Source: Escherichia phage SUT_E520. From it: a stretch of 64,000 bases of DNA. The notes below the pieces were generated by a model that saw nothing but the letters and a program-made list of their open reading frames with translations, was not told the DNA's origin and searched no databases. The stretch is taken from sequence record OQ990040; one strand, given 5' to 3'. Made by a program: the position numbers and the translations under genes. Below are positions 34,644 through 37,675 of this stretch, in pieces (the stretch's first letter is position 1; each line of letters begins with the position of its first letter).

Positions 34644-35591
34644 TTACTTGTTACGCATATCCATGATCATTTGACCATCGTAGCCAGTACCTACCACAGT
34701 CTGAGGTACACCACCTTGATACTTCTGAGCACGGATCATTTCAACTTCCAGTTGTTTCCAACGAATCATTTCAGGAGTAATGGTACGTTGCAATGCGGCG
34801 TTAGCTTCAGCTTCTTTCTTAGCTGCGTACAGTTTAGCATCTGCGTCACGTTCATTAGCAATAGCTTGGTTGTTACGAGCTTCACGATCTGCTTCTGCTT
34901 GTTTAACTTTTTGCTGTGCTTCCTGTTCAACGCGAGCAAGTTCAGCTTTCGCAGCATTAACTTGCTCTTCACGAACTTTGGTATTCTGTACCTGTTCCAT
35001 GATTACTGGCGGCAAGGTAATATCCTGAAGGAATACCTGCTTAACTGTGTAACCATATGGGCGCGCATACTCTTCAACTTCCTGTTGAATTGCAGTTTGC
35101 AATTGAGCCTGAATTTTAGCATCAAATAAATCTTGTGCTTTAGGTACAGACTTACCAAACTCACGAATAGTAGACAGTAATTTTTCAGTTACATACTTGT
35201 CTAGTGCCTGATCCTGAGTACCTGCGTTAATACGGTTAATCGGTGCTTTAGAACCATCAAACTGCAACATAACAGTCAGGTCAACAGTGGATTTAAACTT
35301 ATCCTGGCTAGGAACCTGAAGTTTATCTAATTTTACAGCAATATCTTTTGTACTAAAAGTATCGAAAGATGCAAACGGGTTTACAAGATGGAAGCCCGGC
35401 AATACTGGATTAGGGTCTACTTTACCCAGGAATGTTTGGGTTTTAACCGTACCATCAGAAACAATAGTATATGAATTAAAAGCTAGGATTAAACCTGCTA
35501 AACCAACTACAGCACCAATACCCCAACGTTTAATAGTACGAATTACTTTCTGCTCAGAAGTCAGTTCTTTCATATTTTTAGTAGCAAACAT
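34644..35591 (-). CDS. SPFH/band-7 (HflK/C, stomatin, prohibitin-like) membrane protein
   Basis: N-terminal TM WGIGAVVGLAGLILAF, SPFH-like core, long Ala/Glu/Gln-rich coiled-coil. Confidence 0.55.
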   Translation of the reverse strand: MFATKNMKELTSEQKVIRTIKRWGIGAVVGLAGLILAFNSYTIVSDGTVKTQTFLGKVDPNPVLPGFHLVNPFASFDTFSTKDIAVKLDKLQVPSQDKFKSTVDLTVMLQFDGSKAPINRINAGTQDQALDKYVTEKLLSTIREFGKSVPKAQDLFDAKIQAQLQTAIQQEVEEYARPYGYTVKQVFLQDITLPPVIMEQVQNTKVREEQVNAAKAELARVEQEAQQKVKQAEADREARNNQAIANERDADAKLYAAKKEAEANAALQRTITPEMIRWKQLEVEMIRAQKYQGGVPQTVVGTGYDGQMIMDMRNK

Positions 35592-35625: not shown

Positions 35626-35700
35626 TGGCCGAGGTGACAGGATTCGAACCTGCATAAAGGAATTTAGAAGACTCCTGCCTCTCCCTTAGACTACACCCCG
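35626..35700 (-). tRNA. tRNA-Arg (anticodon UCU)
   Basis: acceptor CGGGGTG/CACCTCG, anticodon arm GGAGT-CTTCTAA-ATTCC, T-arm GCAGG-TTCGAAT-CCTGT, CCA. Confidence 0.7.
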
Positions 35701-36497
35701 TTTAAGTATTTTTAAGAACTCTCGTAAAAACTCTTAAAAATACAGACGATACCGGGAGAGTCATAAGTCTCACTCATTAAGTATTTCAAGACAAAATACA
35801 GTAACGTCTATTATTTTCCAGTTTAAGTCAGGGTGACTTAGTGGTTATGTCCTGCGGTATATTGAGGACTCGGTTAGGCTTGGGGTCATGACTTCCCACC
35901 TTTTGCTGCTACTCAACAGGAGTTATCGCGAATTACCTGTGCTATTGTGCACCATTAGTGACATCTCTCATGTCAGCATTTCCCACTTTGTGGATAGCTT
36001 GAAAAACTACTCCGATATGGAGAAAGAACTTCACTATCCTAGAATACCTTCTAAAGTTCTTCTTTAGCCTGGACATAGTTAAATCGTAATAAAACTATTC
36101 AGCAGACTGGTTGGTTAGTCTGGAACCAACTACCGCGTGGTTTAGGCAGTGCGCAACTAACCTCGGAAGCTTTTATGTTAAAAGCATCAGTTATCCAGTT
36201 CTTACCGACCGTAGGATTCGAACCTACATCTTCCACCAGTTACGGCTTGATAATACCAATTATACTAGGACGGCAGTGTTACTACATAAGTGATTTCCAC
36301 ACCCCACTATTTATAAATCAGAGAAGAGTTTAGGGGAGAGGTTTCAGACGCCTCATTTTACACGTTCTAGCCACTAACCGGGATTGCCGCCCCCTGTGTA
36401 CTAGTTTTACAACTAACCCACCGACTCTATTCAATGCGCTCCGGTTGGGATTCTGCACTCAGCGTAATCGGCTCGCTGTTCCCTAATTTATGAATAT

Positions 36498-36526
36498 ATT
36501 ATACAGAATTTATAAGCATTTAGCAA
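36498..36526 (-). promoter_or_regulatory. T5-type early sigma70 promoter reading into the noncoding leader and tRNA-Arg
   Basis: revcomp of 36521-36526 is TTGCTA; revcomp of 36498-36503 is TATAAT; 17-bp spacer. Confidence 0.6.
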
Positions 36527-37207: not shown

Positions 37208-37675
37208 TTAAGTTTTAGTGACAACAGGTTTATAGAATGTATGTCCCTTAATCTTAGTTGTTTTCTTAAACTTCTTTGTCCAGTAAGGTTTATCTTTACC
37301 ACTATGGAAGTATAGTGCTCCATATGTAGGATCTTGTGGTAAATCAACGTAGTATATCACTCTAGCTAAATTCTTAGCGGTTTGCCAAGCCTCATCAGTT
37401 TTATCAACTTTTGGTCTCTTAGATACCCAAGAGAACTGGTTAGACTGATATACTACTTTACAGTAGGAATCTGGGAATTTACCGGAGTTTACACGGTTTT
37501 TAGTAACATGTGCAATCGCCGTCATTCCCTTTATGCCCTCACCACGACTTTCGAAATAGATATTTTTAGCAATGCAATCTATTTCTTTTGCATCGTGCGA
37601 TGCCTGACTACTAAAGCTGAAGGTAAGGGCAGCTACTAAAAGCAAAGCTGCCTTCATTCTTTTTACTCCTGCCAA
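37208..37675 (-). CDS. secreted SleB/CwlJ-like cell-wall hydrolase
   Basis: signal peptide MKAALLLVAALTFSFSSQA; YFESRGEGIKGMTAIAHVTKNRV...FP...QSNQFSW matches the Hydrolase_2 (SleB) pattern. Confidence 0.55.
   Translation of the reverse strand: MAGVKRMKAALLLVAALTFSFSSQASHDAKEIDCIAKNIYFESRGEGIKGMTAIAHVTKNRVNSGKFPDSYCKVVYQSNQFSWVSKRPKVDKTDEAWQTAKNLARVIYYVDLPQDPTYGALYFHSGKDKPYWTKKFKKTTKIKGHTFYKPVVTKT

What the first reader, a model, noticed from the sequence alone, without database searches (positions are those of the whole stretch)
34644..35591. Phage-encoded SPFH/band-7 membrane scaffold convergent with the cassette
A 315-aa protein with an N-terminal TM helix, SPFH-like core and long Ala/Glu/Gln coiled-coil ends at a shared bidirectional terminator with the plus-strand cassette. 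SPFH proteins organise membrane microdomains and regulate FtsH-type proteases, so a phage copy could remodel the host membrane or protease activity, possibly together with the adjacent membrane cassette.
Basis: partly seen in the sequence, partly recalled or inferred. Interest (0 to 1): 0.4.

Follow-up and report, generated by a model that had tools for sequence, protein, structure and literature searches.

The report
Phage T5-type SPFH membrane scaffold gene
This is a real and strongly conserved phage gene for a membrane-anchored SPFH (prohibitin/stomatin-like) scaffold protein, the counterpart of phage T5 gene T5.080; public records already label it this way, its function is still unknown, and it shows no evolutionary tie to the neighbouring gene cassette.

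Summary
Window 34644-35591 (-) encodes a 315-aa protein with one N-terminal TM helix, a Pfam Band_7 core (E 2e-17) and a 76-residue Ala/Glu/Gln-rich helix. Its AlphaFold model matches the cage-forming SPFH proteins full-length: erlin, prohibitin, HflK/C, stomatin and QmcA.

The window is a T5-like phage, and the gene is the ortholog of T5.080 (99% aa identity, dN/dS 0.02). Homologs occur in 725 phage records across Demerecviridae, Straboviridae, Grimontviridae and, distantly, Schitoviridae. They also occur in Providencia/Morganella chromosomes and in methylotroph core genomes. Several GenBank records already call it "SPFH domain-containing protein". The competing "lipoprotein" label is wrong, because the protein has no cysteine.

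Two corrections:
- The intergenic region holds two hairpins, not one shared terminator.
- The cassette is not co-inherited. It occurs in 222 records against 725, and other T5-likes carry nadR-pnuC or a deletion in that slot.

The basic N-tail predicts an N-in topology with a periplasmic SPFH domain, as in HflK/C and prohibitin and unlike QmcA. The likely mechanism is a homo-oligomeric cage on the inner membrane acting on a host client. FtsH is a candidate by precedent only. The finding is already known and of low-to-moderate interest.

The parts
34644..35591 (-). CDS, 315 aa: SPFH/Band_7 membrane protein, ortholog of phage T5 gene T5.080
   Evidence: ORF. Pfam Band_7 E 2e-17. PHROG 200 E 1.9e-86. 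99% aa identity to T5.080 with dN/dS 0.02. AF2 model plus Foldseek hits to SPFH cage proteins.
35526..35591 (-). Basic N-terminal tail (aa 1-22; 6 K/R, net +4), predicted cytoplasmic
   Evidence: Family-wide, the mean is 3.3 K/R in the N flank of 43 members. Control with E. coli paralogs: N-in HflK and HflC have 2 K/R in the N-tail, N-out QmcA and YqiK have 0.
35469..35525 (-). Single transmembrane signal-anchor helix (aa 23-41), no lipobox, no cysteine
   Evidence: Kyte-Doolittle 1.79, no Cys in the whole protein, no lipobox match. AF2 helix 12-39.
34917..35438 (-). Band_7/SPFH domain (aa 52-225)
   Evidence: Pfam PF01145 envelope. Alpha/beta core at aa 42-192 in the model.
34722..35009 (-). 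Long helix CC1 (aa 195-270, about 11 nm) and helix CC2 (aa 273-290), the wall-forming helices of SPFH cages
   Evidence: DSSP on the model, with pLDDT 74-91 in this region. Composition. Full-length structural alignment to erlin, PHB, HflK/C and QmcA protomers.
34647..34721 (-). Conserved C-terminal motif (KYxGGVPQTVVG..Y.G..IMD.R), low model confidence; candidate cap-forming segment
   Evidence: Near-invariant columns Y291, G293, V295, P296, T298, G301, G306, D311, R313. A related motif, KW[ND]GxYPQT, occurs in cellular homologs. pLDDT 40-45 in the monomer model.
34590..34620 (-). Terminator-like hairpin proximal to the SPFH stop (12-bp stem, then UUUCUGUAUUU); contains the T5 nick consensus Pu^GCGC at 34596-34600
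   Evidence: T5 annotates a 'major DNA single-chain interruption' at the aligned position.
34538..34570 (.). Bidirectional rho-independent terminator between the cassette and the SPFH gene
   Evidence: Folds at -23.1 (+) and -24.5 (-) kcal/mol, z -4.9 and -3.7. Aligns with T5's annotated 'efficient bidirectional terminator', with both stem arms differing between the two phages while each still forms a hairpin.
35626..35700 (-). tRNA-Arg(UCU) immediately upstream, in the same transcription unit
   Evidence: ARAGORN. Rfam 49.3 bits. Same arrangement in T5.
36498..36526 (-). Sigma-70-type early promoter (TTGCTA-17-TATAAT), equivalent to T5 P16-17; likely drives the rnaX-equivalent region, tRNA-Arg and the SPFH gene
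   Evidence: Consensus scan, 10 of 12 matches. The aligned stretch from upstream of the -35 hexamer to about 14 nt past the -10 hexamer is identical to the T5 sequence inside its annotated promoter P16-17 feature.

Best explanation
The gene is the ortholog of phage T5 gene T5.080. It is an early-transcribed, dispensable but strongly conserved accessory gene. It encodes a single-pass inner-membrane protein of the SPFH (stomatin/prohibitin/flotillin/HflK-C) superfamily.

Shown: the ORF, the Band_7 domain, the SPFH fold with long wall helices, strong purifying selection, spread across several unrelated phage families and into bacterial chromosomes, and the absence of any conserved partner gene.

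Inferred: the basic N-tail stays in the cytoplasm and the SPFH domain faces the periplasm. That is the orientation of HflK/C and, topologically, of mitochondrial prohibitin, and the opposite of QmcA. Like every solved full-length SPFH protein, it would homo-oligomerise into a closed dome on the membrane that fences off a patch of host inner membrane.

The gene works in bacterial chromosomes without any phage neighbour, and it moves between phages as a single gene. Its client is therefore most likely a conserved host inner-membrane component rather than a phage protein. The FtsH protease is the candidate with the best precedent, but nothing here tests it. The gene is not functionally tied to the adjacent plus-strand cassette.
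For: Identity and fold:
- Pfam Band_7 at 64.2 bits.
- phmmer against PDB: QmcA 1.8e-6, prohibitin-2 8.6e-5.
- hhalign of the family profile against QmcA: probability 96%, 252 columns.
- AF2 model with pLDDT 74.
- Foldseek probability 1.00, full-length, to erlin1/2 (3.6e-14), PHB1/2, HflK/C, stomatin, QmcA and flotillin.

Known gene: T5.080. GenBank names include 'SPFH domain-containing protein'.

Selection: dN/dS 0.02 against T5. The protein is 76% identical to T4-like copies although synonymous sites are saturated.

Early unit: the promoter is identical to T5 P16-17.

Dispensable: Epseptimavirus NG_S8 keeps only aa 274-315.

Stand-alone action on the host:
- Chromosomal copies in 5 Providencia loci and 8 Morganella loci lie in non-phage contexts.
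- Homologs at 33-41% identity lie in syntenic core contexts such as trpFBA-accD-folC-SPFH.
- No shared neighbour was found.

Topology: 6 K/R in the 22-aa N-tail, the family-wide bias, and the control with E. coli paralogs.
Against: - Oligomerisation was not modelled. Only a monomer could be predicted, and the C-terminal 25 residues have pLDDT 40-45.
- Topology rests on charge bias only. The simple N-flank versus C-flank comparison misclassifies HflK and HflC, so only the N-tail charge argument is usable.
- There is no evidence for any client. At sequence level the protein is nearest to QmcA and not to the FtsH partners HflK/C.
- NCBIfam and PADLOC gave nothing.
- No experimental paper on this gene was found.
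Confidence: 0.6

Rival explanations
1. HflK/C mimic. The phage cage specifically captures or regulates the host FtsH protease. This would protect phage or host membrane proteins from degradation, or rewire FtsH substrates such as LpxC during infection.
For: The fold matches HflK/C protomers in FtsH complexes (7vhq, 7wi3, 9cz2). The predicted periplasmic orientation is that of HflK/C. The FtsH homologs of mitochondria partner with prohibitin, which is also a top structural hit (established knowledge). Early expression fits host takeover.
Against: Profile comparison with HflK gives 8.6% probability. HflC matches over only 31 columns, whereas QmcA aligns full-length. There is no HflK/HflC NCBIfam hit. 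It is a single gene, not a K/C pair. No FtsH-related neighbour occurs in any of 60+ loci.
Confidence: 0.2
2. Superinfection exclusion or envelope barrier. An abundant periplasm-facing lattice on the inner membrane blocks DNA entry or membrane penetration by later-arriving phages.
For: Early expression. The domain is predicted to be exposed to the periplasm. It behaves as an accessory gene that moves horizontally and can be lost, like other exclusion genes. In the Vi01-like phage PhiSH19 an SPFH gene sits beside an annotated superinfection exclusion gene (PMC3220722). The chromosomal copies in Morganella lie next to variable bacteriocin clusters.
Against: There is no PADLOC hit. Distant homologs sit in housekeeping synteny in methylotrophs, which argues for a general membrane role. 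The PhiSH19 adjacency is a single case involving a shorter (263 aa) SPFH protein.
Confidence: 0.12
3. Membrane-integrity factor. The scaffold stabilises the inner membrane and the proton-motive force through the long T5 infection cycle, or blunts membrane-targeting abortive-infection effectors.
For: SPFH proteins are linked to membrane organisation, stress tolerance and respiration in E. coli (abstracts of PMC10434171 and PMC12005517). The gene is carried mainly by large lytic phages. Cellular homologs sit next to type II NADH dehydrogenase in Methylococcaceae.
Against: The gene is dispensable in NG_S8.
Confidence: 0.12
4. One reading: the protein works together with the adjacent plus-strand cassette (32897-34528) as one membrane module.
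For: The two are physically adjacent, convergent and share a terminator region. The first cassette protein has one Gly-rich hydrophobic segment (KD 1.72). NG_S8 lacks both.
Against: The cassette is in 222 records and the SPFH gene in 725. About 440 T5-like records carry SPFH at 80% identity or more, but only about 220 carry the cassette. Epseptimavirus polluks has nadR-pnuC in that slot. T4-like, Grimontviridae and bacterial copies have no cassette homolog. The promoters are separate (P12 against P16-17). The NG_S8 loss is one contiguous deletion.
Confidence: 0.04
5. Database label: it is a lipoprotein (the name given for T5.080 and for PHROG 200).
For: The product name in NC_005859 and many derived records, and the PHROG 200 description.
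Against: The protein has no cysteine at all and no lipobox. 38 of 43 family members have no Cys. The T5 lipoprotein with a known function (Llp, the FhuA blocker) is a different gene next to the receptor-binding protein gene (PMC8624392).
Confidence: 0.01

Closest known systems
Phage T5 gene T5.080 (YP_006908.1) and its orthologs in Tequintavirus/Epseptimavirus
   Same: Same gene: 99% aa identity, the same position between tRNA-Arg and the bidirectional terminator, and the same early promoter.
   Different: Nothing of substance differs. The T5 record calls it 'lipoprotein', which the sequence does not support. Other records call it 'SPFH domain-containing protein'.
SPFH ORFs of T4-like phages (RB43 ORF139c, 44RR ORF098c, Aeh1 ORF064c; Nolan et al. 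2006, PMC1524935)
   Same: Same subfamily, at 60-80% aa identity for the RB43, Pseudotevenvirus, Slopekvirus and Tulanevirus copies. Same length and architecture, also in early regions, and function unknown.
   Different: They are carried by unrelated phage families with different neighbours: tk, the rI antiholin, and NadM-Nudix. Synonymous sites are saturated, so the transfer is old.
E. coli QmcA (stomatin-type SPFH; QmcA-YbbJ complex, PDB 8z5g)
   Same: Best sequence relative among solved structures and among the four E. coli paralogs. Similar size, one N-terminal TM helix, an SPFH core and long helices.
   Different: QmcA has no charged N-tail and faces the cytoplasm, whereas the phage protein has a strongly basic N-tail (the QmcA topology is from established knowledge). 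QmcA is encoded with the NfeD protein YbbJ. No NfeD-like neighbour occurs here.
E. coli HflK/HflC-FtsH complex (PDB 7vhq, 7wi3, 9cz2)
   Same: SPFH cage fold. N-in orientation with a periplasmic domain, which is inferred for the phage protein.
   Different: HflK/C is a heteromer of two adjacent genes, whereas the phage has one gene. Sequence-level similarity is negligible. There is no evidence of FtsH binding.
Prohibitin and erlin cages (PDB 8rrh, 9o9z, 9vvj)
   Same: Top structural matches, full-length. Prohibitin-2 is the second-best sequence hit. NCBI names some homologs 'prohibitin family protein' or 'PHB domain-containing protein'. They share the N-terminal anchor, with the bulk on the non-cytoplasmic side.
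   Different: These are eukaryotic hetero-oligomers at 15-19% identity, in different membranes and with different clients.

Membership tests
SPFH / Band_7 superfamily (Pfam PF01145) | Significant match to the Band_7 profile above the curated cut-off | tested here: met
   64.2 bits against a gathering score of 23.6, E 2e-17, aa 52-225 covering profile positions 13-176 of 176.
SPFH / Band_7 superfamily (Pfam PF01145) | SPFH alpha/beta fold followed by long helices, as in solved full-length members | tested here: met
   AF2 model with pLDDT 74. Foldseek probability 1.00 with 270-317 aligned columns to erlin, PHB, HflK/C, stomatin, QmcA and flotillin.
SPFH / Band_7 superfamily (Pfam PF01145) | Membrane attachment through an N-terminal hydrophobic segment | tested here: met
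   A single hydrophobic segment at aa 23-41, present in all 43 aligned members.
SPFH / Band_7 superfamily (Pfam PF01145) | Assembly into large ring or cage oligomers | not testable with these tools
   Only monomer prediction is available. The conserved C-terminal motif is consistent with a cap segment but does not prove it.
HflK/HflC (FtsH regulators) | Match to HflK or HflC family models or sequences | tested here: not met
   No NCBIfam hit. hhalign gives HflK 8.6% probability and HflC 67.8% over 31 columns only. No HflK/C chain appears in the PDB sequence search at E<=1.
HflK/HflC (FtsH regulators) | Two paralogous genes side by side forming a heteromer | tested here: not met
   A single gene here and in all related loci, against hflK-hflC in E. 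coli.
HflK/HflC (FtsH regulators) | Physical and functional association with FtsH | not testable with these tools
Stomatin/QmcA-NfeD pairs | Closest sequence similarity to stomatin/QmcA-type SPFH proteins | tested here: met
   phmmer QmcA 1.8e-6. hhalign 96.3% probability, E 1.5e-9, 252 columns.
Stomatin/QmcA-NfeD pairs | Adjacent NfeD-family partner gene | tested here: not met
   The window neighbours have no NfeD Pfam hit. No conserved neighbour occurs across phage and bacterial loci. E. coli qmcA is paired with ybbJ.
Stomatin/QmcA-NfeD pairs | N-out / cytoplasmic SPFH domain (uncharged N-terminus) | tested here: not met
   The phage N-tail has 6 K/R in 22 aa, against 0 in QmcA. This is an inference from charge, not an experiment.
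Bacterial lipoproteins (label attached to T5.080 and PHROG 200) | Lipobox ending in an invariant cysteine after a signal peptide | tested here: not met
   Zero cysteines and no lipobox pattern.
Known anti-phage defence system components | Match to a PADLOC model | tested here: not met
   No PADLOC hit at E<=0.1.

The most novel reading that the evidence does not exclude
The T5.080-type protein could be a mobile, single-gene host-takeover device. In this reading it forms a periplasm-facing SPFH cage that phages of at least four families have exchanged and that Morganellaceae have domesticated. The cage would either imprison a conserved inner-membrane machine such as FtsH, or shield the membrane against competing phages or abortive-infection effectors. 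That would be the first assigned function for the many viral SPFH genes.
Probability: 0.15. Interest if true: 0.6.

Novelty: already known. Interest (0 to 1): 0.25.

Why it matters
SPFH genes have been noticed in phage and giant-virus genomes since at least 2006. Papers up to 2026 still call their role unclear (PMC1524935, PMC7760394, PMC13239085).

This copy sits in T5, one of the most tractable model phages. It is under strong purifying selection, can be deleted in nature, and acts as a single gene. It is therefore a convenient entry point for finding out what viral SPFH cages do.

For annotation, two practical points follow. The widespread 'lipoprotein' label for T5.080 and PHROG 200 should be replaced by 'SPFH domain-containing membrane protein'. 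The neighbouring cassette should be treated as an independent variable module.

Tried and rejected
- NCBIfam and PADLOC scans gave no hits, so there is no equivalog name and no known defence role.
- Literature searches found no functional study. The searches were for SPFH with T5, SPFH with T5-like genera, 'T5.080', phage-encoded SPFH, and superinfection exclusion.
- I looked for a conserved partner gene (NfeD, FtsH or a cassette homolog) around homologs in T4-like, Schitoviridae and bacterial loci and found none.
- A possible shared SPFH-NMN-adenylyltransferase module between Epseptimavirus and Pseudotevenvirus did not hold up. The two downstream genes share only the NMNAT domain (NadR-type against NadM-Nudix, BLASTP E 0.002) and are not orthologs.
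- The simple positive-inside comparison of N and C flanks failed its control on HflK and HflC. I therefore rely only on the N-tail charge.
- Rfam matches to the two hairpins (anti-hemB, ctRNA, leaders) are all far below gathering scores. I read them as generic terminator-like hits.
- The 'Flagellimonas marina' hit is a 178-kb T4-like phage contig, not a bacterial gene.
Full report
**What is there**

Window 34644-35591 on the minus strand is an intact 315-aa ORF. It has an AAGGA ribosome-binding site and a TAA stop.

- One hydrophobic segment at aa 23-41, with a Kyte-Doolittle score of 1.79.
- A Pfam Band_7/SPFH match at aa 52-225, at 64.2 bits against a cut-off of 23.6 and E 2e-17.
- A long Ala/Glu/Gln/Lys-rich region that the AlphaFold2 model folds as an unbroken 76-residue helix (195-270), followed by a second helix at 273-290.

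The model has a mean pLDDT of 74. In Foldseek it aligns full-length, at probability 1.00, with protomers of every solved SPFH cage:
- erlin1/2 (3.6e-14)
- prohibitin 1/2
- HflK/C in FtsH complexes
- stomatin
- QmcA
- flotillin
- the vault protein

**Where the window comes from, and whether the gene is known**

The region is about 100% identical to Escherichia phages SUT_E420, EC148 and T5_ev212, and 97-98% identical to many Salmonella and Escherichia T5-like phages. Close relatives are classified as Demerecviridae, genus Tequintavirus.

In the T5 reference the gene is T5.080. It is 99% identical in protein sequence. T5 annotates it as 'lipoprotein ... similar to AEH1ORF064C and 44RRORF098C; contains single transmembrane domain'. 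Other records already name it 'SPFH domain-containing protein' or 'SPFH domain / Band 7 family protein'.

SPFH ORFs in the T4-like phages 44RR, Aeh1 and RB43 were tabulated in 2006 (PMC1524935). BFVD holds SPFH-fold proteins from many phages and giant viruses. Papers from 2020 and 2026 still describe the role of phage SPFH proteins as poorly understood or unclear (PMC7760394; PMC13239085). I found no paper on T5.080 itself. The identification is therefore already known, and the function is open.

The 'lipoprotein' label is wrong for this protein. It contains no cysteine and no lipobox, and 38 of 43 family members have no cysteine. The characterised T5 lipoprotein, Llp, is a different gene (PMC8624392).

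**Transcription unit and the terminator claim**

A sigma-70-type promoter lies at 36498-36526 on the minus strand (TTGCTA-17-TATAAT). The aligned stretch from upstream of its -35 hexamer to just past its -10 hexamer is identical to the T5 sequence inside the annotated early promoter P16-17.

Between this promoter and the SPFH start lie a non-coding stretch and tRNA-Arg at 35626-35700. The non-coding stretch corresponds to T5's 719-nt 'rnaX'. The gene is therefore most likely an early gene co-transcribed with stable RNAs.

Downstream, the 115-nt intergenic region contains two hairpins rather than one shared terminator.
- **Hairpin 1 (34538-34570).** It folds well on both strands, at -23.1 and -24.5 kcal/mol. 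It aligns with T5's annotated 'efficient bidirectional rho-independent transcription terminator', and both stem arms differ between the two phages while each still forms a hairpin.
- **Hairpin 2 (34590-34620).** It lies 23 nt after the SPFH stop and is terminator-like on the minus strand only. It contains the Pu^GCGC consensus at which T5 annotates a major single-strand nick.

**Distribution and selection**

tblastn finds the protein in 725 phage records:
- About 440 T5-like records at 80% identity or more.
- Straboviridae of about 175 kb (Pseudotevenvirus, Slopekvirus) at 76-80% identity.
- Aeromonas Tulanevirus at about 60%.
- Grimontviridae (phage SE131) at 72%.
- Distant copies (31-35%) in Aeromonas phage PX29 and a Vibrio Schitoviridae phage.

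Against T5, dS is 0.33 and dN is 0.007, giving dN/dS of 0.02. Against the T4-like and bacterial copies, synonymous sites are saturated while 59-76% of residues are kept. The exchange between phage families is therefore old, and the protein is under strong constraint.

The gene is nevertheless dispensable. Epseptimavirus NG_S8 retains only codons 274-315.

In 1.84 billion representative proteins, the family profile finds only 84 clusters at E<=1e-30 and 1,959 at E<=1e-3. This is a small, discrete branch of the SPFH superfamily.

**Cellular relatives**

A scan of species-representative bacterial genomes found copies at 57-59% identity in five Providencia loci and eight Morganella loci, including a complete M. 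morganii chromosome.

Their neighbourhoods are non-phage and differ between the two genera:
- In Providencia the neighbours look like metabolic and transport genes, judged from their N-terminal sequences only: a racemase-like protein, a regulator and PTS-type components.
- In Morganella the gene sits next to small peptides with Gly-Gly-type leaders and large exporter-like ORFs.

Homologs at 31-41% identity occur in Methylophagaceae, Methylococcaceae and other gammaproteobacterial MAGs, in syntenic housekeeping contexts. One example, again by my reading of the ORFs, is trpF-trpB-trpA-accD-folC-SPFH. Another places the gene next to a type II NADH dehydrogenase-like ORF.

These homologs share the short basic N-tail, the TM helix, the 'NSYTTV' start of the domain, and a C-terminal 'KW[ND]GxYPQT...G' motif related to the phage 'KYxGGVPQTVVG'. 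None has an NfeD or FtsH neighbour. The protein therefore functions as a single gene in cells that contain no phage partner.

**Relation to the host's own SPFH proteins**

I compared the family profile with each of the four E. coli K-12 paralogs.

| Paralog | hhalign result |
|---|---|
| QmcA | 96.3% probability, E 1.5e-9, 252 columns (full-length) |
| HflC | 67.8% probability, 31 columns only |
| HflK | 8.6% probability |
| YqiK | 4.9% probability |

PDB sequence searches agree: QmcA 1.8e-6, prohibitin-2 8.6e-5, and no HflK/C hit.

The phage protein still differs from QmcA in two defining respects. It has no NfeD partner, whereas E. coli qmcA is paired with ybbJ. Its N-tail is strongly basic, with 6 K/R in 22 residues, whereas QmcA and YqiK have none. 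Both of those are cytoplasm-facing by established knowledge.

I checked the charge argument on proteins of known topology. The usual N-flank versus C-flank comparison misclassifies HflK and HflC. The N-tail K/R count does separate N-in (HflK 2, HflC 2) from N-out (QmcA 0, YqiK 0). On that basis, and because the segment looks like an uncleaved signal anchor, I infer an N-in topology with a periplasmic SPFH domain. My confidence in this is about 75-80%. It is the orientation of HflK/C and, topologically, of mitochondrial prohibitin.

**The adjacent cassette**

The plus-strand genes at 32897-33886, 33908-34324 and 34334-34528 correspond to T5.077-079. They have their own promoter (P12) in T5.

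Their products are unusual:
- The first has a Gly-rich hydrophobic segment and an Ala/Gln-rich tail.
- The second is 28% glutamine.
- The third is a 64-aa protein with 8 cysteines.

None of them has a Pfam, NCBIfam or PADLOC match. The only matches are to PHROGs of unknown function.

The first cassette protein occurs in only 222 phage records, essentially a subset of T5-likes. About half of the T5-like records that carry the SPFH gene lack it. Epseptimavirus polluks has a NadR-type NMN adenylyltransferase and PnuC in that position. No cassette homolog accompanies the SPFH gene in T4-like, Grimontviridae-size or bacterial loci.

The slot downstream of the SPFH gene is a variable accessory site. 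The suggested functional partnership has no comparative support.

**Most likely mechanism**

Shown:
- It is an SPFH-fold, single-pass membrane protein.
- It is expressed from an early promoter region.
- It is conserved under strong selection.
- It is horizontally mobile as a single gene.
- It is dispensable.

Inferred:
- The orientation is N-in with the SPFH domain in the periplasm.
- It homo-oligomerises into a dome like all solved full-length SPFH proteins. The conserved C-terminus would be the cap. The monomer model leaves that segment at pLDDT 40-45, as expected for a segment that folds only in the oligomer.
- It acts on a conserved host inner-membrane client.

FtsH is the best-precedented client, but nothing here singles it out. 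Superinfection exclusion and membrane stabilisation are equally untested alternatives.

**Verdict**

The SPFH interpretation is supported. The link to the cassette is not supported, and the 'shared terminator' detail needs correction.

The gene is already known and already annotated as SPFH in public records. What remains open is its function, for which T5 would be a good experimental system. Interest is low to moderate.

Noticed in passing
window 34590-34620 (GCGC at 34596-34599): The SPFH-proximal hairpin carries the T5 nick consensus Pu^GCGC on the minus strand. It aligns exactly with the position that the T5 record annotates as a 'major DNA single-chain interruption'. A conserved terminator-like hairpin and a genome nick site therefore coincide.
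   Followed up: partly
window 35701-36497, especially 36203-36274 (-): An approximately 800-nt non-coding stretch lies between the early promoter and tRNA-Arg. It corresponds to T5 'rnaX', a stable RNA of unknown function. Rfam finds a tRNA-like element there at 35.5 bits (gathering score 29) that ARAGORN did not call.
   Followed up: partly
window 32897-34528 (+): A three-gene plus-strand cassette (T5.077-079 equivalents) has its own promoter and odd products. The products are a protein with an acidic/His-rich N-terminus, a Gly-rich hydrophobic segment and an Ala/Gln-rich C-terminus with 7 Cys; a 138-aa protein that is 28% Gln; and a 64-aa protein with 8 Cys. They have no Pfam, NCBIfam or PADLOC hits. 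They are confined to about 222 T5-like records, plus a partial match (aa 175-327, 60% identity) in Pseudomonas phage KPP23.
   Followed up: partly
L067 (Escherichia coli phage NG_S8, LC788711.1): A natural Epseptimavirus variant lacks most of the SPFH gene (only aa 274-315 remain), the whole cassette and the Toprim gene. This shows that the whole block is dispensable.
   Followed up: yes
L007-L019 (Providencia and Morganella chromosomes): Phage-type SPFH genes at 57-59% identity sit in non-phage chromosomal contexts. These contexts are conserved within each genus but differ between the two genera. In Morganella the gene is next to small Gly-Gly-leader peptides and exporter-like ORFs. The direction of transfer is unresolved.
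   Followed up: partly
L006 (NZ_JBHSCL010000010.1, 'Flagellimonas marina', 178 kb contig): This contig is collinear with Cronobacter phage vB_CsaM_leN, and its SPFH protein is 95% identical. It is almost certainly a T4-like phage genome in a bacterial assembly, not a Flagellimonas gene.
   Followed up: yes
L071 5635-7369 and L003 5077-6132: In Epseptimavirus polluks the SPFH gene is followed by a NadR-type NMNAT (with AAA_28) and PnuC. In Pseudotevenvirus leN it is followed by a NadM-type NMNAT-Nudix. The two are non-orthologous NAD-salvage genes in the same relative position in two unrelated phage families. With only two cases this could be chance.
   Followed up: partly
L003 3235-3912 (Cronobacter phage leN): In the T4-like phage the SPFH gene lies directly downstream of an RI-type antiholin (PF24205, E 7e-26) and a DUF5856 gene. 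In Aeromonas phage 60AhydR15PP the homologous pair is 3 kb away. This probably reflects T4 gene order rather than a functional link.
   Followed up: partly
window 32112-32681 (-): A 189-aa protein is annotated 'DNA primase' in related records. It has only a Toprim-like domain (Toprim_2, E 2.6e-5) and matches the C-terminal part of PHROG 849. It is too short to be a full primase.
   Followed up: no
window 37208-37675 (-): A SleB-type cell-wall hydrolase (Hydrolase_2, E 3.8e-25) has what looks like an N-terminal signal sequence. It is annotated 'endolysin' in T5 (T5.083) and sits in the early region, far from the structural genes.
   Followed up: no
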